Shown one piece after another: positions 2,086 through 16,471 of a DNA stretch of 64,000 bases. The DNA is taken from contig MFLV01000011.1 of the NCBI GenBank assembly GCA_001781435.1, positions 11,268 to 75,267 on the forward strand, read 5' to 3'. Numbering within the stretch: position 1 is the stretch's first letter; every line of letters begins with the position of its first letter. The notes beneath the pieces were generated by a model. It did no database searches, had not been told where the DNA came from, and was given only the letters and a program-made list of their open reading frames with translations. The DNA is from Candidatus Kaiserbacteria bacterium RIFCSPLOWO2_01_FULL_51_21 (lineage in GTDB: Bacteria > Patescibacteriota > Minisyncoccia > Phycocordibacterales > 2-01-FULL-51-21). Both the position numbers and the translations under genes were made by a program.

Positions 2086-3795
2086 TCACATCCGCTCGGG
2101 GGTTTTGATGCCAAGGAGAAAAAGACCATTCATCATGGTTTGGTGAAATGCTTTGGTGAGTGCAAGTTTGTAGGGAGATTCGGGGGTATCGTCAATTATT
2201 TTTTCTTTTGCGTACCAGCTGTTGAACGTGCCGGCAAGCTCGGTGAGAAACGTGGCGACATAGTGCGGCTCGTATTCCCGCGCCGCGCGCTCAACAATTT
2301 CAGGAAAACGATATAAGAGTCGTTCAATTTCAATAACCTCTTTCGGCACACGCTCGACGTTATCCGCGCTTCCCGCTCTTCCAAGAATGGAGTGAGCACG
2401 CGTTGCCGCGTATTGAAGATAAGGACCACTGTCGCCCTCAAACGAAACAGATTTTTCAAAATCAAAAACGATATCGCTCCCCATTCCTTGCTTGAGAATG
2501 GAATACTTGATGGCGCCAATTGCGATTGCCTCGATAGTCTCCTGCTCCTTCCCCGTCGCCCGTTCGCTCATTTTCTCCTTCACTCTTTTTGAAACTTCAT
2601 CGATAAGCGACTCGGCAGTAACAATGTCACCAGTGCGCGAGGACATTTTCCCAGACGGGAGCCGCAGCATCCCATGCGGAATATGCACGATTTTTTCCGC
2701 GAGTTTCGCGTTAATGCGGCGAAGCGCGGCAAGAACTACCTTGAAGTACTCGACTATCTCATTGCCCGTGATGGAAACAAAAATGTCAGCCGGGTGACGC
2801 TCCTCTTTTAGAAACGCCAGACCGATTTCTTTTGCTTCATAGGTTGGCAGTCCTTCGGAATTCAGAAACACGCGGGTATGGAGTCCTTCTTTTCCCCCAC
2901 GAAAAACTATAGCCCCCTCACTTTGTTCAAAAACTTCTGGGTGTTCTTCGACAATTCTTTTTCCATATACTCCGCTATAAGATTCAAAATAATAATAATC
3001 AAATCCTGTTCCAGTTTTTTCATTAAATGTTCCCAGTTTTTTATAAATTTTTTCAAATTCCCTGAATGATTCGGCTTTCCCTTCAGAATAAAGTTCTAAT
3101 AAATCCTTTTTTTTACTACCTTTTCCATAGAGGCTTTCATATATTTCTTTATTAATTTCTCGAATTTCTTTTTTGGCTTCCTCCTCTTCTTCATATTTAG
3201 CAGCACCCCATCCGTAAGCCTCTCCCCATTTAACATTTGGTTTCTTCATTTTCCCCCAAAGCGCCTTTGCAACATGAAGCCCGACATCACCCTGATAGCT
3301 TGCCCGCTTCACTTCCGCGCCGGAAAACTCAATGAGCCGCGCAATAGATTCACCAATCGCATTACTCATAAGATGCCCAATGTGAAATTCCTTGAATGGG
3401 TTCGGGTCGGTGTATTCCACCATTACCTTCTTTCCAAGAAGCATCTTGTTCTTTCCCCACTCTTCCCCCGATTCGAGAATTTTCCTTACATTACCGGCAA
3501 AAAAATCCCTTGAGAGAAAAAAGTTGATGAAACCGGCCCCCGCCACGTCAACTTTTTCCACCTCCTCCAGCTGCTGTTGTACGATATATCGTACAACTTT
3601 CTCGGCAAGCTCCCGTGGATTGCCGCCCTGCGATTTCGCCAGTACTAGCGCAACATTGCTCGCATAATCTCCGTGCAAGATATCGGCCGGATGCTCCAGA
3701 TAAATGTCGGGGATGGAGAGACCGAGACTTTTGAGCGCCTCCATTATCGACTGCTTGATTTTCTCAACAATCATTGCGGCCATTGTAGCACGCAC
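2086..3795 (-). CDS. argS: Arginyl-tRNA synthetase
   Basis: EFHIGHL (HIGH motif) and an ArgRS-like anticodon-binding C-terminus. It contains a K/E-rich low-complexity insert (KYEEEEEAKKEIREINKEIYESLYGKGSKKKDLLELY). Confidence 0.9.
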   Translation of the reverse strand: MRATMAAMIVEKIKQSIMEALKSLGLSIPDIYLEHPADILHGDYASNVALVLAKSQGGNPRELAEKVVRYIVQQQLEEVEKVDVAGAGFINFFLSRDFFAGNVRKILESGEEWGKNKMLLGKKVMVEYTDPNPFKEFHIGHLMSNAIGESIARLIEFSGAEVKRASYQGDVGLHVAKALWGKMKKPNVKWGEAYGWGAAKYEEEEEAKKEIREINKEIYESLYGKGSKKKDLLELYSEGKAESFREFEKIYKKLGTFNEKTGTGFDYYYFESYSGVYGKRIVEEHPEVFEQSEGAIVFRGGKEGLHTRVFLNSEGLPTYEAKEIGLAFLKEERHPADIFVSITGNEIVEYFKVVLAALRRINAKLAEKIVHIPHGMLRLPSGKMSSRTGDIVTAESLIDEVSKRVKEKMSERATGKEQETIEAIAIGAIKYSILKQGMGSDIVFDFEKSVSFEGDSGPYLQYAATRAHSILGRAGSADNVERVPKEVIEIERLLYRFPEIVERAAREYEPHYVATFLTELAGTFNSWYAKEKIIDDTPESPYKLALTKAFHQTMMNGLFLLGIKTPERM

Positions 3796-3807: not shown

Positions 3808-4503
3808 TCAGAGCTTGAGGCGACGGCTGACTGCCTGCCGAATCTCCTTGCGGATTGATTCAACTGAACGCATCTTGCCGCGAGGAGCACAGGTGATTTC
3901 AATCCAGTCAGGCCGCGTTGCGGCAAGAGAGCGGTATTGCCGTATCGCCGCCCGCTGGAGAGAAGGGTTGCGTTCGTGGTAATCTTTTCGCCACTTTGTG
4001 TTATTCAAGTAGGGGCGTTTTTTCTTTTCGGCGATAAATTTCTGCGAGACGGCAAGGAGCACATGTAAATAAATTACGAGCGACGGTCGCGGTATGCCGA
4101 GCTCCCGGTACTCAAGCTTTTCAAGCCACTTGATAAAAGCACTCCGCTTCCTCCCGGACGAAAATTTTGCCGACTGGTATGCCGCATTGCTCGGCGTGTA
4201 GCGGTTGCAAACCACGACGCCACGGGAAAGCGCCTTGGTAATTTTAGGAATGGCGCTCACGCGGTCGAGTATATAGGGCAACGATGCAATTTCAGGAAAC
4301 ATTGCCACAAAATCGCCGAATTCTCCCGCGAGCGCTCTCCCAACGAGCGCCCCGGCAAGTGATTCCCGGTAGCGGGGAAAATCGAAGTACGCAACGCGGT
4401 GCTTTTTTGAGAGCTCCTTCACGAGCGCTTTCGCTTGAGTCTTCTTGCCGGCTCCGTCGGAGCCCTCAATGACGATAAGACTTCCTTTCTTCATTGTCGA
4501 CAA
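3808..4503 (-). CDS. tmk: Thymidylate kinase
   Basis: LIVIEGSDGAGKKTQ P-loop and an overall Tmk-like sequence. Confidence 0.9.
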   Translation of the reverse strand: MSTMKKGSLIVIEGSDGAGKKTQAKALVKELSKKHRVAYFDFPRYRESLAGALVGRALAGEFGDFVAMFPEIASLPYILDRVSAIPKITKALSRGVVVCNRYTPSNAAYQSAKFSSGRKRSAFIKWLEKLEYRELGIPRPSLVIYLHVLLAVSQKFIAEKKKRPYLNNTKWRKDYHERNPSLQRAAIRQYRSLAATRPDWIEITCAPRGKMRSVESIRKEIRQAVSRRLKL

Positions 4504-4509
4504 TTTCTC

Positions 4510-5778
4510 TTACAAAAATTGCTCGGGAATCGGAAATTGTTTGCATAGAGTTCTCACTTCTTCCCGAATTTCTTTTTTCTTTGCGTCGTTGTCCTTGTTT
4601 TTGAGCGTCTCAACCAGGAGTTCAGCCACTCGAGCGGACTCTTTCTCCTTGAAACCGCGGGTCGTTATCGCCGGCGTACCAAAGCGGATACCGGAAGGGT
4701 CCATCGGTTTCCTCGGGTCATCGGCAATCATGTTCTTGTTAAGGGTAATGCCCACCTCGTCAAGCACCGTCTCCGCTTCTTTGCCCGAAATACCGAGCGA
4801 GCCATGCACGTCGGCAAGAATCAGATGGTTGGATGTCCCCCCACCGATCATGCGGATACTGTGGCGGTGCAGCACTTCCTCCATCGCTTTGGCATTCTTA
4901 AGTATCTGCGCTGCATACGTTTTGAATGAAGGATGCAGGGCTTCACCAAAGGCAACCGCTTTTGCTGCAATGTTGTTCATATGCGGACCCCCTTGAAAGC
5001 CAGGAAAGACCGTTTTGTCTATTTTTTTGGCAATATCTTCGCTCTCTCTCGTCAAAATCATGCCTCCGCGGGGGCCTCGTAGTGTCTTATGCGTGGTGGT
5101 CGTAAGCACATCAAAACCAGAATCAAAGGGGTTCTTCGCGGCACGCCCGGCAATGAGACCGGCGATATGGGCGATGTCCATAACCGCATATGCTCCGACT
5201 TCTCGAGCGATGGAAACAAATTTTTTGTAATCGAGTTCCCGCGAGTATGCCGAAAAGCCCGCGAGTACAATTTTCGGCTTTGCTTCTTTGGCAACGCGCA
5301 ACATTTCGTCGTAATCAATTTCTCCCGTGTCAGGATCTTTCATTTTGTACCGTACAAAGTTGAAGAACTTGGTGATGTAGGTCACGGGATGCCCGTGCGT
5401 AAGATGCCCTCCGTGAGAGAGATCCATGCCGAGCACCGTGTCCCCTGGTTCAAGAAGAGCAAAGTAGAGAGCAACGTTGGCAGGGGCGCCAGAGAGCGGC
5501 TGCACATTGGCAAACTGGCAGTTGAATAATTTTTTAGCCCGCTCGATGGCAATTGTTTCAACAACATCAGTGAACTCCTGCCCACCGTAGTAGCGCTTAC
5601 CGGGATACCCTTCGGAATATTTATTGGTAAGGACCGAGCCCATCGCTTCGCGAACGGCTCGGGATACGTAATTTTCCGAAGGGATAAGCTCCAGCCCTTC
5701 CGCCTCTCGTTGTTCTTCGCCTTCAAGAGCATCAAAAACCTCCTTATCCTGTTTTTGTATGTGTTCGTAGAAATTCAT
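4510..5778 (-). CDS. glyA: Serine hydroxymethyltransferase
   Basis: LELIPSENYVSRAVREAMGSVLTNKYSEGYPGKRYYGG and TTTTHKTLRGPRGG. Confidence 0.95.
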   Translation of the reverse strand: MNFYEHIQKQDKEVFDALEGEEQREAEGLELIPSENYVSRAVREAMGSVLTNKYSEGYPGKRYYGGQEFTDVVETIAIERAKKLFNCQFANVQPLSGAPANVALYFALLEPGDTVLGMDLSHGGHLTHGHPVTYITKFFNFVRYKMKDPDTGEIDYDEMLRVAKEAKPKIVLAGFSAYSRELDYKKFVSIAREVGAYAVMDIAHIAGLIAGRAAKNPFDSGFDVLTTTTHKTLRGPRGGMILTRESEDIAKKIDKTVFPGFQGGPHMNNIAAKAVAFGEALHPSFKTYAAQILKNAKAMEEVLHRHSIRMIGGGTSNHLILADVHGSLGISGKEAETVLDEVGITLNKNMIADDPRKPMDPSGIRFGTPAITTRGFKEKESARVAELLVETLKNKDNDAKKKEIREEVRTLCKQFPIPEQFL

Positions 5779-12514: not shown

Positions 12515-13159
12515 CTAATTAAGGGTATCAGCAAGCTTGTGGTTAACGTCGCGGTGATGCATCTCGTCGTTGCGGGTCGCAATAATGACTTCCCTGAGGC
12601 GCGCGGCAGGAGCAAGAGACCAATAGCGGATAGCGAGTGCGGGAGCAGGGATGTTTTTTCGCTCATTCGCCTCCACTTCCGCCAAATACTCGCTATAGCT
12701 GTGGACCGCGGCCTCTTCGAGATATCCGGCGAGACGATGAGCCGTGTGCGGAGAAAAAAGATAGATGCAGAAATAGCTCAAACCAAACACCCATTGCGCG
12801 ACAAATATCAGCAAACGCTCCAGAGACGTCGGCTGAGCGATATGAATAAACACCATCAAATGCATCCGCTCGTTTTCAGCCTCCGCAAGGAGGGTGCGTA
12901 TCCATCCACCATCGTCGCGAAGGTGGCGAAGCGCCTTGAAATGCTGCATCATCCCGCCGACCATCCCCGGCACCGCCGCAACCGTCTCAAGCACCACGGC
13001 ACGGTGTCCGTACCGCTCTCGAAAAAATGTATCCGCAACCCACAGGGCGAATCGCACCAGCCCATAGGCAACCGTGTCACGGAGACCGTGGGGTTTGTAG
13101 TGAAAGAAGAGCTGGTGCTCTGACACTATTATATTGTCCGGGGTAGCGTGTAGATGCAT
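12515..13159 (-). CDS. aox: Alternative oxidase (AOX/PTOX family di-iron ubiquinol oxidase)
   Basis: Diagnostic AOX motifs are present: LETVAAVPGMVGGM, NERMHL, LEEAAVHSY and RNDEMHHRDVNH. Confidence 0.75.
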   Translation of the reverse strand: MHLHATPDNIIVSEHQLFFHYKPHGLRDTVAYGLVRFALWVADTFFRERYGHRAVVLETVAAVPGMVGGMMQHFKALRHLRDDGGWIRTLLAEAENERMHLMVFIHIAQPTSLERLLIFVAQWVFGLSYFCIYLFSPHTAHRLAGYLEEAAVHSYSEYLAEVEANERKNIPAPALAIRYWSLAPAARLREVIIATRNDEMHHRDVNHKLADTLN

Positions 13160-13193: not shown

Positions 13194-13919
13194 CTAGAAA
13201 TGGGCGAGCTGAATCGCCGCAAACAGTACGCCAACTCCGAGAACGGTCATGAAGGTGGTAAGAATTTTCGGGTGAGCATGGTGACTTTCAGGTATAAGGT
13301 CACTCGCGCCGATGTAGAGAAAGAATCCTGTAAAGAGTGCGAGGATGATGCTTAGATATTTTTCCGGCAGGGTAAAAAAAAGAGTTGAGCCCGCGCCAAG
13401 AACCGGCGTAACTGCGTCCACCAAGAGCCAGCGAAATGCACTGCTACGGCGTCCTGCGTTTTTGAGAACTAAATTGACCGTGTTGATGCCGTCGGAGAAG
13501 TCGTGGACAAGAACTGCGGCTGTTACTACTGCGCCAATCGCCGCAGAGACTTGGAATGCCAGGCCAATTGCCACACCGTCGAGGAAGCTATGGAAACAGA
13601 GGCTCCCCGCTCCAAGAATCCCGCGGTGAGTCGAGGCGTGCTCAACCCCCTCTTCCCCACTGTGGGAATGAAAAAAAATTGTTCTATCAAGTAAAAGATA
13701 GAGGAGAAAACCAACGGTAACAAACTGTGTGACGGTTGCGACGTCAAAAAATTGCTGTCCAAGCTCAATCGATTCTGGCAGTAAATCGAAAAAGGCAACG
13801 CCAATGACCGCTCCGGCGCTAAATCCCAAAATCAAGTGCAACTTGTCGCGGAAACGAAGCGCAAAAAGACCGCCGACGAGTGTTGAGACAAACGCAGCAA
13901 AAGCAATGGCAAGTATCAT
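13194..13919 (-). CDS. zupT: ZIP-family zinc/iron transporter
   Basis: HSFLDGVAIGLAF and HDFSDGIN motifs. The start is chosen at MILAIAF to avoid overlapping tRNA-His. Confidence 0.75.
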   Translation of the reverse strand: MILAIAFAAFVSTLVGGLFALRFRDKLHLILGFSAGAVIGVAFFDLLPESIELGQQFFDVATVTQFVTVGFLLYLLLDRTIFFHSHSGEEGVEHASTHRGILGAGSLCFHSFLDGVAIGLAFQVSAAIGAVVTAAVLVHDFSDGINTVNLVLKNAGRRSSAFRWLLVDAVTPVLGAGSTLFFTLPEKYLSIILALFTGFFLYIGASDLIPESHHAHPKILTTFMTVLGVGVLFAAIQLAHF

Positions 13920-13947
13920 ACGAATGTAAGTTAGCGAGTACTTTTTT

Positions 13948-14022
13948 TGGGTGCCTACTGGGATTCGAACCCAGTCTGGCTCCTCCACAGGGAGCAGTGC
14001 TGACCATTACACCATAGGCACC
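13948..14022 (-). tRNA. tRNA-His (anticodon GUG), with encoded CCA
   Basis: Reverse complement GGTGCCTATGGTGTAATGGTCAGCACTGCTCCCTGTGGAGGAGCCAGACTGGGTTCGAATCCCAGTAGGCACCCA; anticodon loop CUGUGGA. Confidence 0.8.
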
Positions 14023-14068
14023 ATCTGTTCAAACTAACAAAGTCTGGATAGGCCAATCGTGTTAGTTT

Positions 14069-14155
14069 TGGTGCGCGGGAGAGGATTTGAACCTCCAAGC
14101 CCTTACGGGCACCACCACCTCAAGATGGCGTGTCTACCGATTTCACCACCCGCGC
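14069..14155 (-). tRNA. Type II tRNA with a long variable arm; anticodon read as GAG (Leu)
   Basis: Reverse complement GCGCGGGTGGTGAAATCGGTAGACACGCCATCTTGAGGTGGTG...GGAGGTTCAAATCCTCTCCCGCGCACCA. Confidence 0.65.
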
Positions 14156-14814
14156 GCATTTTTGTCAAGTTTAAGCGCTTTATATATCTTTTCCTTCTTC
14201 CGCGCTAGACAGACAGCGGTATCGCTATAATACATTTTTTTAATAATTTTCAAAGACTCTTTCTTAGCATACTTAAGCTGGTAGGTAGAACCTTTACCGT
14301 CCTTTGTAATATGCCCTATTACTTCTGACCTCACCCGGAGCGATTGCCGGATCCAATCAATAAAACTCTTACTTGCAGAAGCTAACTGTAAGTAGTACAT
14401 GAAACTTGAACGCCACCGTGGATCCCAATAAGAATAAAAAGATCCGTCACCGTCAAAACATCCGCGCAGAAAATCAAAAAAATACTGCTGAGGAACATCG
14501 ACTGCTCCAATGGTCTTTGACTTGGCAGGCGTTAATCCAATACCAAGTAGAAACTGATAAAACAAAATATCCCCGAATTGAACACGGAAGTAATCTCGTT
14601 TTTTATGTCCACTGGAGTGTTTGGCCAATTTAGAGTCAAGACCGAGACAATGTTTGAATGTTTTAAGCTGTTCAATGTCTTTTGACACAAGAACGATATG
14701 GTATCCATCAATTGAAAGACACCCATCGGTCGCAATAAGTCCAATTGCATAGGCAAATTCCGGCGACCATTTAATTTTTACTTTTCCCTTTGGCTTTACC
14801 CCTCTTGCTCCCAC
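14143..14814 (-). mobile_element. Free-standing LAGLIDADG homing endonuclease gene (two-motif, single-chain type); its 3' end overlaps tRNA-Leu by 13 nt
   Basis: Two LAGLIDADG motifs, YAIGLIATDGCL and FLRGCFDGDGSF. The gene is markedly more AT-rich than its flanks. Confidence 0.8.
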
Positions 14815-14904
14815 ATATCTATTTTACCTCAAGGCCATAGCGTATACCAAATAAATTATACACGAAATCCTCGTTGGCTTGAGAGGTCTTAGCAATCACT
14901 TTTC

Positions 14905-15357
14905 CTATACCGCCGCTACTTCTGCGGGAGATTCTTTATTGTCAGGGGTTTTTAAAACTACCTGTTGCGACCGGCGCATTTGTTTGCGGATTTCTTTTGC
15001 CGCTTTGTTGCGAATATAGTAGAGCTTCGCGCGCCGCACGCGGCTCCGAGACACCTTTTCAATCTTATCGATTGCCGGAGAATAGAGCGGAAATACCCGT
15101 TCAACTCCTACCCCATCAATAACCCGACGTATGGTAAATGTCGCGCCTGCCTCACTGCCATGCTTGCGTGCAAGCACGAGCCCCTCAAATGCCTGGAGGC
15201 GCGCATTCTTCGTCGTTACCTCTTTTTTGTTGGCAGCTTTGGTGTGTTTCAATTCCTCAATTTTTTGCCACACACGCACGGTGTCGCCGGGGCGAACATC
15301 GAGTTTTTTGCGCTCTTCCATATTTACCGGAGAGATTTTGATTTCTGGCATTTTCAT
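14905..15357 (-). CDS. rplS: Ribosomal protein L19
   Basis: [11 protein letters not shown]...[13 protein letters not shown]...[19 protein letters not shown]. Confidence 0.9.
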
Positions 15358-15399
15358 GACGCGAATACTCTAACACGAGCATCACCGCTCCGCAAGAAT

Positions 15400-15520
15400 C
15401 TTTGGTAATGTGCAAGCACATATGGCGGTTGACGTTGACATTCCACCTGCCGTCATTGCGATTCGCGTTGACAACCGAGACGTTTGCGTGCCTCGCGCCA
15501 CCCATACCACCATCCATTGA
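15400..15520 (-). pseudogene. Degenerate duplicate of the 3' end of the upstream 254-aa gene
   Basis: DNA at 15400-15500 is about 75% identical to 15760-15840. Translations VVNANRNDGRWNVNVNRH and VVFAGRRDGGWDVDVYRL align. Confidence 0.45.
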
Positions 15521-15706: not shown

Positions 15707-16471
15707 TCACAGAGTCGCAGCGTCCGAGTTGCGGACAAAGAGGCGGTAGTCGGCATCCCAGCGATAGCCGTAGTCGAGCCGGTAGACGTCGACATCCCAC
15801 CCGCCGTCACGGCGACCCGCGAAGACAACCGAGACGAGATCGTTCTTGTCGATGACGAAAAAGAAGTTCGCCCAGCTATCGGTACGCAGACCGACATTCG
15901 TGCCCTTCTCTTGGCGCTCGATGAGCGATTCGATTTGGGGCAAAGCGAAAACGTGGTTTCGTTCGACGAGGAACGAAACCAGTTCGCCGACGTCTCGTGT
16001 CGAGACCTTAAGGACGGCTTGCGCCATCTCAATGAAGGTCAGCTCTTGGCCCAGTGCATAGATTGAGGCCGGGCTGGGAACTTCTGCTCCCTGTTTGGTC
16101 GACAGCCAGCGATCGATGTTGCCGTCGCGATAGCCGTAGAGGTTTTCGCGGAAGCAGTCCTCCGTCTTCTTTTCGGCGGTTGCCGGAAGTTGCACCAGTC
16201 CCCCGATGCGGTTGAGCACCGCGGCAGGAGGAGCGGTGGAAACGGAGTGCGGCTCGGGCACCACCCTATTGAAGCGCCCCTCGATTGCGTCTTGCAGATA
16301 CGCCTTTAGCTCTTCTGGGTTGAACGGATAGCCGTTCGGCTGCCGTAACTGCCTTCCAAGCTCGAAGAGCTGGCCGGTGATGGATTCGTACAAATCGCCT
16401 GCGACCTGTGCGGCCATGACGATATCTCCTTTAGTTTGAAAAGAGCTGTCCCGGGGAGCGGAAACCCACAC
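15707..16471 (-). CDS. Hypothetical protein on a GC-rich island (function unknown)
   Basis: Long ORF of about 60% GC versus about 50% in the surroundings. C-terminus ...GRRDGGWDVDVYRLDYGYRWDADYRLF. A likely start is at MAAQVAGD (16417). Confidence 0.5.
   Translation of the reverse strand: MWVSAPRDSSFQTKGDIVMAAQVAGDLYESITGQLFELGRQLRQPNGYPFNPEELKAYLQDAIEGRFNRVVPEPHSVSTAPPAAVLNRIGGLVQLPATAEKKTEDCFRENLYGYRDGNIDRWLSTKQGAEVPSPASIYALGQELTFIEMAQAVLKVSTRDVGELVSFLVERNHVFALPQIESLIERQEKGTNVGLRTDSWANFFFVIDKNDLVSVVFAGRRDGGWDVDVYRLDYGYRWDADYRLFVRNSDAATL

What the first reader, a model, noticed from the sequence alone, without database searches (positions are those of the whole stretch)
14069..14814. Free-standing AT-rich LAGLIDADG homing endonuclease gene overlapping tRNA-Leu
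A two-motif LAGLIDADG ORF of about 38% GC versus about 52% in the flanks lies between rplS and a tRNA-Leu/tRNA-His pair. It overlaps the tRNA-Leu 5' end by 13 nt on the same strand and is not inside an rRNA or tRNA intron. This suggests a recently acquired selfish element or the remnant of an intron whose RNA core has been lost.
Basis: partly seen in the sequence, partly recalled or inferred. Interest (0 to 1): 0.55.

Follow-up and report, generated by a model that had tools for sequence, protein, structure and literature searches.

The report
Homing endonuclease cassette replacing tRNA-Leu(GAG)
The AT-rich gene is an intact homing-endonuclease gene that belongs to a widespread mobile cassette of Patescibacteria. 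The cassette sits on the tRNA-Leu(GAG) gene, leaves a piece of the old tRNA upstream as its own promoter, and supplies a full, sequence-altered tRNA-Leu downstream.

Summary
There is an intact 223-aa two-motif LAGLIDADG ORF at 14143-14814 (-), lower in GC than its flanks, between rplS and tRNA-Leu(GAG)/tRNA-His. Its stop codon lies 13 nt inside the tRNA, and no group I intron core is detectable.

"Recently acquired" is not supported. The family has thousands of members. In 82 loci the gene always sits directly upstream of tRNA-Leu(GAG), its GC tracks host GC, and dN/dS is 0.05-0.10.

It is still not a core gene. About 30 related loci have rplS abutting tRNA-Leu(GAG) with nothing in between, so empty sites exist.

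The new finding is a conserved block just upstream of the start codon, aATTGGTA(G/T)ACGC-TA-nnnnC-TTGAGG (window 14826-14852). It copies the D-loop-to-anticodon-loop part of tRNA-Leu(GAG), and one locus keeps the whole 5' half. This remnant supplies the -35 region of a promoter whose -10 box lies 6 nt before the start codon.

The full downstream tRNAs in cassette-bearing loci vary unusually in the D and anticodon stems.

Best reading: a free-standing homing cassette that targets tRNA-Leu(GAG) and carries a cleavage-resistant replacement tRNA. A sister family sits upstream of tRNA-Leu(CAA).

The parts
14905..15357 (-). rplS (ribosomal protein L19). This is the upstream host gene. In empty-site relatives its stop codon lies 1-18 nt from tRNA-Leu(GAG).
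   Evidence: Pfam Ribosomal_L19 E 1e-29. rplS lies upstream of the endonuclease gene in 76 of 80 loci. Empty sites.
14826..14852 (-). Remnant of a tRNA-Leu(GAG) gene, D-loop to anticodon loop: aTTTGGTATACGC-TA-TGGCC-TTGAGGT. It has one extra nucleotide relative to a real tRNA.
   Evidence: The strict pattern GGTAKACGC-N6-CTTGAGG matches at 14827-14848 (-), with 0 expected by chance. The same block lies upstream of the start codon in 61 of 74 cassette-bearing loci. It matches exactly in 30 loci and in no empty-site locus. L054 keeps the full 5' half.
14821..14850 (-). Promoter of the endonuclease gene: -35 TTGGTA (14850-14845, inside the tRNA remnant), 18-nt spacer, -10 TAAAAT (14826-14821). 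The -10 box ends 6 nt before the GTG start, which is a leaderless-type arrangement.
   Evidence: It is the only minus-strand promoter-like hit in 13900-15450. Family-wide, 60 of 70 start codons have a >=5/6 TATAAT match 4-9 nt upstream, and 41 of the 67 matches scoring >=4/6 lie exactly 6 nt upstream; the rate at random positions is 4.5%.
14143..14814 (-). LAGLIDADG homing-endonuclease gene: 223 aa, single chain, two domains.
   Evidence: AlphaFold model pLDDT 85.5. Best PDB match is I-Tsp061I (2dch, E 6e-11), followed by I-AniI, I-DmoI and I-SceI. dN/dS in the family is 0.05-0.10.
14722..14751 (-). LAGLIDADG motif 1 (YAIGLIATDG, residues 22-31). The catalytic Asp30 codon is at 14725-14727.
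   Evidence: D30 and G31 are invariant in alignment A1. The motif lies at the end of helix 18-30 of the model.
14443..14472 (-). LAGLIDADG motif 2 (FLRGCFDGDG, residues 115-124). The catalytic Asp123 codon is at 14446-14448.
   Evidence: D121, G122, D123 and G124 are invariant. The motif lies at the end of helix 109-122.
14069..14155 (-). Complete resident tRNA-Leu(GAG) with a non-canonical D stem (GTG/CAC) and anticodon stem (CCATC/GGTGG). The endonuclease stop codon is tRNA nt 11-13.
   Evidence: ARAGORN. Rfam tRNA 49 bits. Comparison with empty-site tRNAs.
13949..14021 (-). tRNA-His(GTG). This is downstream host context. The same Leu-His order is seen in the empty-site relative L081.

Best explanation
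The ORF is the endonuclease gene of a site-specific homing cassette whose target is the chromosomal tRNA-Leu(GAG) gene of Patescibacteria. The cassette has four parts in fixed order. First comes a 5' remnant of a tRNA-Leu(GAG) gene (D-loop to anticodon loop). Second, that remnant has become the promoter region of the endonuclease gene, with a -10 box 6 nt before the start codon, which suggests a leaderless mRNA. Third is the two-domain LAGLIDADG endonuclease with both catalytic Asp residues. Fourth, 0-10 nt further on or overlapping, is a complete tRNA-Leu(GAG).

Inferred mechanism. The enzyme cuts cassette-free, canonical tRNA-Leu(GAG) genes somewhere in the D-arm/anticodon-arm segment. Repair from a cassette-bearing copy installs the endonuclease gene together with a replacement tRNA. 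The D and anticodon stems of that tRNA differ from the canonical sequence, with compensatory changes that keep it functional but probably uncleavable. tRNA function is therefore never lost, so no intron or intein is needed. The tRNA is probably co-transcribed with the endonuclease gene and released by RNase P. The extremely conserved remnant may also act as a non-cleavable operator for autorepression, or as the left homology arm for homing.

Shown here: the cassette architecture, the fixed insertion site, the empty sites, the intact catalytic motifs, purifying selection, the promoter geometry and the altered resident tRNAs.

Inferred only: cleavage activity, the exact target, immunity of the resident tRNA, co-transcription, and any operator role.
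For: 1. Fixed site. In all loci where the downstream DNA is present (L001-L080, L096, L098, window) the homologue lies on the same strand directly upstream of tRNA-Leu(GAG). The gap from stop codon to tRNA is mostly +1 to +10 nt, or the two overlap by 13, 15, 22 or 36 nt.

2. Empty sites. 32 loci retrieved with an rplS profile have rplS followed by a tRNA-Leu (31 GAG, one AAG in L111) and no LAGLIDADG gene. The rplS stop is often only 1-18 nt from the tRNA. Occupied and empty sites both occur in hosts with Leu-His synteny and in hosts with Leu-Val-Phe-Gly synteny.

3. Context. L014 carries remnant, endonuclease gene and tRNA-Leu(GAG) in a different genomic context: L9 upstream, a T9SS-tail protein downstream, and no rplS.

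4. tRNA remnant. It is found in 61 of 74 loci by a strict rule, and more loci have degenerate copies. The strict pattern occurs only in occupied loci and once in the window, with 0 expected by chance. L054 has the full 5' half GCGCGGGTGGCGAAATTGGTAGACGC-TA-CTACC-TTGAG with a canonical D arm, while its resident tRNA has CTG/CAG.

5. Promoter. The -10 box geometry is conserved. In one subclass TTGAGG, the anticodon loop, sits exactly 17 nt upstream of the -10 box (read from the sequences). The window has TTGGTA-18-TAAAAT. No consistent -10 box lies next to the tRNA in occupied loci.

6. Resident tRNAs. The canonical D stem GCG/CGY occurs in 19 of 73 occupied loci and in 20 of 32 empty loci (Fisher p = 8e-4). 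Resident tRNAs show more mismatches to the remnant's TTGGTAKACGC (Mann-Whitney p = 0.001). Column entropy is higher in the D stem, position 26 and the anticodon stem, but lower in the acceptor, variable and T arms (interaction reached in 0 of 300 label permutations).

7. Enzyme. Catalytic Asp residues are invariant, the two-domain LAGLIDADG model is confident, and dN/dS is 0.05-0.10.

8. Weak coupling to host phylogeny. Endonuclease identity stays near 0.58-0.60 while rplS identity ranges from 0.3 to 0.7. L061 and L067 share 0.99 rplS identity but only 0.65 endonuclease identity. Mantel r is 0.25-0.37 for endonuclease against host genes, and 0.60 between the two host genes.

9. Precedent. T4 SegB is a free-standing endonuclease in a tRNA cluster that recognises a tRNA-gene motif (PMC2330249).
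Against: There is no biochemical evidence for cleavage or for any particular target. No population-level presence/absence polymorphism was seen: all 5 contigs with this organism's rplS carry the gene. Long-term purifying selection (dS > 1 between the closest pairs) and GC that follows the host would also fit a gene kept for a host function. The flat endonuclease identity could partly reflect saturation of fast-evolving sites rather than transfer, and pairs with rplS identity >= 0.8 are on average more similar (0.69). The occupied and empty tRNA sets come from different collections and are phylogenetically non-independent. The stem region used for the entropy test was chosen after inspecting the columns. 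Some resident tRNAs still match the remnant's D-arm block exactly (L028, L031, L038). A simple insertion does not by itself explain why positions 14-38 are duplicated. No relative was found in IMG/VR, so no vector is known.
Confidence: 0.68

Rival explanations
1. Domesticated LAGLIDADG protein. The gene is no longer selfish and serves the host, for example as a DNA-binding regulator of the downstream tRNA-Leu transcription unit or as an RNA maturase-like factor. Under this view it is inherited vertically and lost repeatedly.
For: dN/dS is 0.05-0.10 over dS > 1. Every copy examined is intact. ORF GC follows host GC. The gene is fixed in this species. The protein is as conserved as L19: mean pairwise identity 0.60 against 0.56. 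A sister family fused to an HTH domain also sits next to a tRNA-Leu gene. The LAGLIDADG folds of WhiA and of maturases are among the structural matches.
Against: Most related rplS/tRNA-Leu(GAG) loci lack the gene. The tight 1-18 nt rplS-tRNA junction of empty sites in two host lineages is hard to regenerate by repeated deletion. Both catalytic Asp residues are invariant, unlike in WhiA. Congruence with host genes is weak. The cassette also occurs in a non-rplS context.
Confidence: 0.17
2. Decayed group I intron. The ORF was once encoded in a group I intron in the anticodon loop of tRNA-Leu(GAG). The ribozyme core was lost and an intact tRNA copy took over. The cassette would then be a fossil and not currently mobile.
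For: Homology between the upstream remnant and the tRNA ends at the 3' edge of the anticodon loop. That is the zone where bacterial tRNA group I introns insert, and such introns are common in Patescibacteria (PMC13011429). LAGLIDADG genes are typically intron-borne.
Against: No group I intron model matches in the window at E <= 10 or in 8 other loci at gathering score. A complete tRNA, not a 3' exon, follows the ORF. The Patescibacteria tRNA introns that carry endonuclease genes encode HNH enzymes in tRNA-Asn, not LAGLIDADG enzymes. Strong purifying selection on the ORF argues against a fossil.
Confidence: 0.1
3. Recent horizontal acquisition of a foreign AT-rich gene into this genome.
For: ORF GC is 0.41 against 0.51 in the flanks.
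Against: The same GC offset of about 7 points is seen in nearly all 81 loci, and ORF GC correlates with host GC (r = 0.79). The closest relative outside the species is 73% identical. The gene is identical and present in contigs from many samples.
Confidence: 0.03

Closest known systems
Free-standing phage homing endonucleases with intronless homing, especially T4 SegB (GIY-YIG) in the T4 tRNA gene cluster (PMC2330249)
   Same: Both are free-standing endonuclease genes embedded among tRNA genes. SegB's recognition site contains a conserved tRNA-gene motif. The endonuclease gene and neighbouring tRNA genes are inherited together by gene conversion. The carrier's own copy is presumably protected by sequence differences.
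   Different: The enzyme family differs (two-domain LAGLIDADG, not GIY-YIG). The host is a cellular chromosome of Patescibacteria, not a phage. One specific tRNA, Leu-GAG, is involved. A tRNA remnant upstream has been recruited as the promoter. Activity and homing are untested here.
LAGLIDADG endonucleases in rRNA group I introns and insertion sequences of CPR bacteria (PMC11270868), and archaeal rRNA-intron enzymes I-Tsp061I and I-DmoI
   Same: They share the protein fold and single-chain two-domain architecture, and I-Tsp061I is the best structural and sequence match. They occur in the same bacterial radiation. They also target a highly conserved structural-RNA gene.
   Different: This gene is not inside an intron or an rRNA gene. 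Function of the target gene is preserved by supplying a second complete gene copy instead of by splicing.
Integrase-type genomic islands and prophages that integrate into tRNA genes and carry a copy of the displaced tRNA segment
   Same: The logic is the same. The element targets a conserved tRNA gene, reconstitutes an intact tRNA from element-borne sequence, and leaves a partial tRNA repeat at the other end.
   Different: Those elements use tyrosine integrases, duplicate the 3' part of the tRNA and can excise. Here a LAGLIDADG nuclease is involved, the 5' part is duplicated, and there is no integrase.
I-TevI autorepression through an operator that resembles its homing site.
   Same: A target-like sequence overlaps the endonuclease gene's own promoter and differs from the real target in a way that could prevent cleavage (here, one extra nucleotide).
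   Different: This is purely an analogy. No binding or repression data exist for this family.
WhiA (LAGLIDADG-derived transcription factor)
   Same: It has a two-domain LAGLIDADG fold (3hyi), and one JGI annotation names a family member WhiA.
   Different: WhiA lacks the catalytic acidic residues and has a C-terminal HTH domain. This protein keeps both catalytic Asp residues and has no HTH domain.

Membership tests
LAGLIDADG homing endonucleases (single-chain, two-motif) | Two LAGLIDADG motifs in one polypeptide | tested here: met
   YAIGLIATDG (residues 22-31) and FLRGCFDGDG (residues 115-124). Pfam LAGLIDADG_3 E 4e-9.
LAGLIDADG homing endonucleases (single-chain, two-motif) | A catalytic acidic residue at the C-terminal end of each LAGLIDADG helix | tested here: met
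   D30 and D123 are invariant in 28 diverse members and lie at the ends of helices 18-30 and 109-122.
LAGLIDADG homing endonucleases (single-chain, two-motif) | Pseudo-dimeric alpha-beta-beta-alpha-beta-beta-alpha fold with a beta-sheet DNA saddle | tested here: met
   The model has pLDDT 85.5 and the expected order of secondary-structure elements. Foldseek matches I-Tsp061I, I-AniI, I-DmoI and I-SceI at probability 1.00.
LAGLIDADG homing endonucleases (single-chain, two-motif) | Site-specific double-strand cleavage of a long (about 20 bp) target | not testable with these tools
   This needs a purified enzyme and substrate assays.
Homing (mobile) endonuclease genes in general | Presence/absence at one precise genomic site in related genomes (occupied and empty sites) | tested here: met
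   82 occupied sites, all at the 5' side of tRNA-Leu(GAG). 32 empty rplS/tRNA-Leu sites.
Homing (mobile) endonuclease genes in general | Phylogeny decoupled from the host (horizontal spread) | tested here: inconclusive
   Congruence is weak (Mantel 0.25-0.37 against 0.60), the cassette occurs in a non-rplS context, and both states occur in two host synteny groups. Saturation cannot be excluded, and no full species-tree reconciliation was done.
Homing (mobile) endonuclease genes in general | Embedded in a self-splicing intron or an intein | tested here: not met
   No group I or group II intron model matches, and the ORF is not in frame with a host protein. It is therefore a free-standing gene.
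Group I intron in a tRNA gene | Ribozyme core (P3-P9) between a 5' exon and a 3' exon of one tRNA | tested here: not met
   Rfam finds none at E <= 10 in the window region and none in 8 other loci. A complete tRNA, not a 3' exon, lies downstream.
WhiA-type domesticated LAGLIDADG regulators | Loss of the catalytic acidic residues plus a C-terminal HTH domain | tested here: not met
   The catalytic Asp residues are retained, and no HTH domain is found by Pfam.

The most novel reading that the evidence does not exclude
The cassette may be a 'tRNA-replacement gene drive'. In this reading the endonuclease destroys the canonical tRNA-Leu(GAG) gene and installs itself together with a cleavage-resistant tRNA-Leu allele. 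The displaced tRNA fragment becomes the cassette's leaderless promoter and possibly a non-cleavable operator. The host's tRNA-Leu(GAG) expression then depends on the element, which amounts to addiction. Truncation of the remnant blocks reversion by repeat recombination. Continuing conflict between endonuclease and target drives compensatory diversification of the D and anticodon stems of an essential tRNA. A sister family would do the same at tRNA-Leu(CAA) in other phyla.
Probability: 0.35. Interest if true: 0.78.

Novelty: new variant of a known kind. Interest (0 to 1): 0.62.

Why it matters
Homing endonucleases normally need an intron or an intein to invade essential genes without killing the host. 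This cassette suggests a third route: bring a complete, resistant copy of the target gene and discard the old one.

If that is correct, three things follow. It explains a gene found in hundreds of Patescibacteria species that databases list as 'hypothetical protein'. It identifies a natural nuclease family with a conserved tRNA-gene target. It also predicts selfish-element-driven evolution of tRNA stem sequences and of tRNA promoter architecture in genomes that are otherwise extremely streamlined.

There is a practical consequence too. Annotators should expect a pseudo-tRNA fragment and an ORF/tRNA overlap at this locus.

Tried and rejected
- Group I intron search: none in the window at E <= 10 and none in 8 other loci at gathering score.
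- NCBIfam: no family model for this protein.
- IMG/VR scan with the family alignment: no relatives, so no phage vector is known.
- My first remnant pattern used the wrong spacing (N7) and found nothing. The corrected N6 pattern matched.
- blastn-short of the tRNA against the window did not detect the remnant, because of the extra nucleotide and mismatches.
- Search for strain-level empty sites using this organism's exact rplS: all 5 contigs carry the gene.
- Pure vertical inheritance of a core gene: I considered this after seeing universal synteny in the first 80 loci. I rejected it as the main reading once the rplS-anchored scan showed that most related loci are empty.
- A tRNA-proximal promoter inside the 3' end of the ORF: no consistent -10 box.
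- The 1.9-kb rplS-tRNA gap in L092 holds an unrelated 481-aa ORF, not a decayed endonuclease gene.
- The upstream regions of the tRNA-Leu(CAA) sister family share no word of 8 nt or more with their tRNA, so no remnant was detectable there.
- Literature searches found no description of this arrangement.
Full report
**1. What is in the window**

On the minus strand the order is rplS (14905-15357), a 90-nt spacer, a 223-aa ORF (14143-14814, GTG start), tRNA-Leu(GAG) (14069-14155) and tRNA-His(GTG) (13949-14021). The ORF matches Pfam LAGLIDADG_3. It has two motifs, YAIGLIATDG and FLRGCFDGDG.

The TGA stop codon is nucleotides 11-13 of the tRNA, so the 13-nt overlap is real. ORF GC is 0.407 against 0.512 for the flanks. 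Rfam at E <= 10 finds only the two tRNAs and no intron core.

**2. The protein**

A 5.8-billion-protein search returned 3471 hits. The best 120 are all 58-73% identical, 215-250 aa long, and come from Patescibacteria/CPR bins. A profile search of 1.84 billion representatives gave 259 clusters at E <= 1e-30 and 3770 at E <= 1e-10.

In a 28-member alignment, 47 columns are invariant, including D30, D121 and D123, the acidic residues at the ends of the two LAGLIDADG helices. The AlphaFold model is confident (pLDDT 85.5). It matches I-Tsp061I best, then I-AniI, I-DmoI, I-SceI, maturase bI3 and WhiA. The best sequence match to a solved structure is also I-Tsp061I.

Nei-Gojobori dN/dS for the closest family pairs is 0.05-0.10, with dS above 1. 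The protein looks like an active single-chain LAGLIDADG nuclease under strong purifying selection.

**3. A fixed genomic position**

A scan of one genome per GTDB species found 318 relatives, and I examined the best 80. Wherever the downstream DNA is present, the gene lies on the same strand immediately upstream of tRNA-Leu(GAG). The stop codon is usually 1-10 nt from the tRNA, or falls inside it at nt 13, 15, 22 or 36. In 76 of 80 loci rplS lies upstream, and in most of them (63 of 80) an RluA-type pseudouridine synthase lies upstream of that.

ORF GC correlates with flank GC (r = 0.79) but is on average 7 points lower in the family. The AT-richness is therefore a family trait and not a sign of recent arrival. 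All five contigs in public assemblies that encode this organism's exact L19 also carry the gene. The identical endonuclease occurs on 21 contigs, including NCBI GCA_001779665.1.

**4. Empty sites**

I next anchored a metagenome scan on an rplS profile instead of on the endonuclease. Among the loci that look like Patescibacteria, 32 have rplS followed by tRNA-Leu (31 GAG, one AAG) with no LAGLIDADG gene. Only two (L096, L098) have the gene.

In the empty sites the rplS stop codon is often only 1-18 nt from the tRNA. The closest rplS relative of the window, L081, has the same tRNA order (Arg-Val ... rplS-Leu-His) and is empty. An alignment shows the window simply has extra DNA between rplS and the tRNA.

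Occupied and empty sites both occur in hosts with Leu-His synteny and in hosts with Leu-Val-Phe-Gly synteny. The tight rplS-tRNA junction is shared by empty sites of both groups, so it is most simply ancestral. The gene is then an insertion that occurred more than once, always at this tRNA.

L014 carries the same arrangement with ribosomal protein L9 upstream and a T9SS-tail protein downstream, and without rplS. This points to the tRNA, not rplS, as the determinant of position.

**5. The upstream tRNA remnant**

This is the main new finding. Printing the 110 nt upstream of every start codon revealed a block that is far better conserved than anything else in these spacers: aATTGGTA(G/T)ACGC-TA-nnnnC-TTGAGG.

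The block is the D-loop, the 3' strand of the D stem, the 5' strand of the anticodon stem and the anticodon loop (anticodon GAG) of tRNA-Leu(GAG). Compare the empty-site tRNAs...AAATTGGTAGACGC-A-CTACC-TTGAGGT.... The block carries one extra nucleotide (TA where the tRNA has A or G), and this extra nucleotide is shared across host lineages.

A strict rule finds the block in 61 of 74 occupied loci, and several others have degenerate copies. An exact 16-base pattern matches 30 loci. All of them are occupied, and the match always lies just upstream of the start codon. The pattern matches the window once, at 14827-14848 (-), with 0 matches in 100 shuffles.

L054 retains the whole 5' half, GCGCGGGTGGCGAAATTGGTAGACGC-TA-CTACC-TTGAG. 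It has the same acceptor strand as its resident tRNA but a canonical D arm, whereas the resident tRNA has CTG/CAG. L098 also keeps the acceptor strand. So the endonuclease gene is flanked by tRNA-Leu(GAG) sequence on both sides: a 5' fragment upstream and a full gene downstream.

**6. The remnant is the promoter**

In 60 of 70 loci a >=5/6 match to TATAAT lies 4-9 nt upstream of the start codon. Of the 67 matches scoring >=4/6, 41 lie exactly 6 nt upstream. The rate at random positions is 4.5%. This geometry is typical of leaderless mRNAs.

Two subclasses are visible in the sequences. In the short class the sequence runs TTGAGGTGATATAAT-N6-ATG, an extended -10 box with TAGACG of the D arm 17 nt upstream. 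In the long class TTGAGG, the anticodon loop, sits exactly 17 nt upstream of the -10 box and serves as the -35 element.

In the window the scan tool reports TTGGTA-18-TAAAAT at 14850-14821 (-), ending 6 nt before the GTG. It is the only minus-strand promoter-like hit in 1.5 kb.

A T-rich run at a roughly fixed distance upstream of the remnant (consensus), often preceded by a hairpin, suggests that an rplS terminator precedes the cassette in most loci. The window has no clear terminator there. No consistent -10 box lies next to the tRNA in occupied loci, whereas several empty-site relatives have one 8-9 nt upstream of the tRNA. The resident tRNA is therefore probably co-transcribed with the endonuclease gene and released by RNase P. 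This step is inferred.

The TTGGTAnACGCTA core is nearly invariant, even where it lies upstream of the -35 element. Promoter function alone does not explain this. It may be an operator, or a homology arm for homing.

**7. The resident tRNA is unusual**

The canonical D stem GCG/CGY occurs in 20 of 32 empty-site tRNAs but only 19 of 73 resident tRNAs of occupied loci (Fisher p = 8e-4). The rest carry GTG/CAC (as in the window), GAG/CTC, TTG/CAA, TCG/CGA or CTG/CAG, all of which still pair. Resident tRNAs also have more mismatches to the remnant's TTGGTAKACGC (p = 0.001).

Column entropies after rarefaction show that resident tRNAs are less diverse than empty-site tRNAs in the acceptor, variable and T arms. 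They are more diverse in the D stem, position 26 and the anticodon stem. The interaction was reached in 0 of 300 label permutations.

Three caveats apply. The two sets come from different collections. They are not phylogenetically independent. I delimited the stem region after looking at the columns. With those caveats, the pattern is what one expects if the nuclease recognises the D-arm/anticodon-arm segment and carriers survive by keeping a compensated, uncleavable allele.

**8. Mobility against domestication**

Endonuclease identity is almost flat (0.58-0.60) across host distances from 0.3 to 0.7 rplS identity, and rises to 0.69 only for rplS identity >= 0.8. L061 and L067 share 0.99 rplS identity and 0.84 RluA identity but only 0.65 endonuclease identity. 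Mantel correlations with host genes are 0.25-0.37, against 0.60 between the two host genes. Endonucleases from Leu-Val-synteny hosts do not form one group.

This favours transfer, but saturation of fast sites cannot be excluded. Long-lived purifying selection, host-like GC and fixation within the species leave room for a host-beneficial role. I give that rival 0.17.

The intron-fossil idea fits the position where the remnant ends. Otherwise it lacks support: there is no ribozyme core, and a complete tRNA follows the ORF. The published Patescibacteria tRNA introns that carry endonuclease genes encode HNH enzymes in tRNA-Asn (PMC13011429).

**9. Proposed mechanism**

The enzyme cuts canonical, cassette-free tRNA-Leu(GAG) genes. 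Repair templated by a carrier copies the promoter, the endonuclease gene and the resistant tRNA. The old tRNA's 5' part is left upstream.

A full-length 5' repeat, as in L054, could recombine with the resident tRNA and delete the cassette. Truncated remnants carrying the extra nucleotide cannot regenerate a working tRNA, which would lock the cassette in. This last point is inference.

Where the stop codon lies inside the tRNA, as in the window, RNase P processing would produce non-stop mRNA and might keep enzyme levels low. This is speculation.

**10. Comparison with what is known, and novelty**

The nearest concept is intronless homing by free-standing phage endonucleases. The closest case is T4 SegB, which lies in a tRNA cluster and recognises a tRNA-gene motif (PMC2330249). 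The protein is closest to archaeal and CPR rRNA-intron LAGLIDADG enzymes (PMC11270868). The logic of restoring a tRNA from element-borne sequence recalls integrase-type islands.

I found no paper describing a LAGLIDADG gene coupled to tRNA-Leu(GAG), the tRNA remnant, or its use as a promoter. NCBIfam has no model for the protein. I rate it a new variant of a known kind.

**11. A sister family**

More distant relatives of about 300 aa carry an N-terminal HTH domain and come partly from Rokubacteria-like, high-GC contigs. Their predicted C-termini look like translated tRNA. Three of these proteins were looked up (five contigs, L161-L165). In the four whose downstream DNA is held, the gene lies directly upstream of tRNA-Leu(CAA), and tRNA-Ala(GGC) follows in the three that extend far enough. 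No upstream remnant was detectable there. This suggests a wider LAGLIDADG clade specialised on tRNA-Leu genes.

Noticed in passing
L161 3001-4097; L162 3001-4028; L163 940-1964; L164 3001-4033: A distantly related family of about 300 aa, with an N-terminal HTH domain plus the LAGLIDADG domains, sits directly upstream of tRNA-Leu(CAA). tRNA-Ala(GGC) follows in the three loci that extend far enough. The contigs are Rokubacteria-like and high in GC. In L161 the gene overlaps the tRNA by 21 nt. No upstream tRNA remnant was detectable. The association between LAGLIDADG genes and tRNA-Leu may therefore extend beyond Patescibacteria.
   Followed up: partly
L014 2660-3531: The same cassette (remnant aATTGGTATGAGCTACTACTTTGAG, endonuclease gene, tRNA-Leu(GAG)) occurs in a bin labelled Omnitrophica. 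Ribosomal protein L9 lies upstream, a protein with a T9SS C-terminal sorting domain lies downstream, and there is no rplS. Here ORF GC (0.56, GC3 0.74) exceeds flank GC. This could be cross-phylum transfer or a mis-binned contig.
   Followed up: partly
window 12515-13159 (-): The 214-aa ORF two genes downstream of tRNA-His is recorded as Pfam AOX (alternative oxidase) in the matching public contigs. This is unexpected for a Patescibacteria genome, which normally lacks a respiratory chain.
   Followed up: no
window 15707-16471 (-): A 254-aa ORF lies between the RluA-type gene and rplS. It has no recorded Pfam hit in the matching public contigs, and its GC is higher (0.57-0.60) than its surroundings. 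None of the 80 related loci has a homologue at this position. It may be a lineage-specific insertion.
   Followed up: no
L054 about 685-740 (57 nt upstream of the endonuclease start at 741); L098 about 3335-3400: Two loci keep the acceptor-stem 5' strand in the upstream remnant. L054 has the complete 5' half through the anticodon. These look like younger or less eroded insertions and are the best candidates for reconstructing the original insertion junction.
   Followed up: partly
L001-L080 and L096, 10-25 nt upstream of the remnant: Most occupied loci have a hairpin plus T-run (terminator-like) at a roughly fixed distance upstream of the tRNA remnant. Empty sites have rplS running almost straight into the tRNA. 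The window itself has no clear terminator there.
   Followed up: partly
L061 and L067 (endonuclease at 4001-4678 and 4001-4681): Two hosts have 99% identical L19 but endonucleases only 65% identical. Both lack the usual remnant, and L067 has a 597-nt rplS-endonuclease spacer. This may reflect replacement by a different endonuclease lineage.
   Followed up: no
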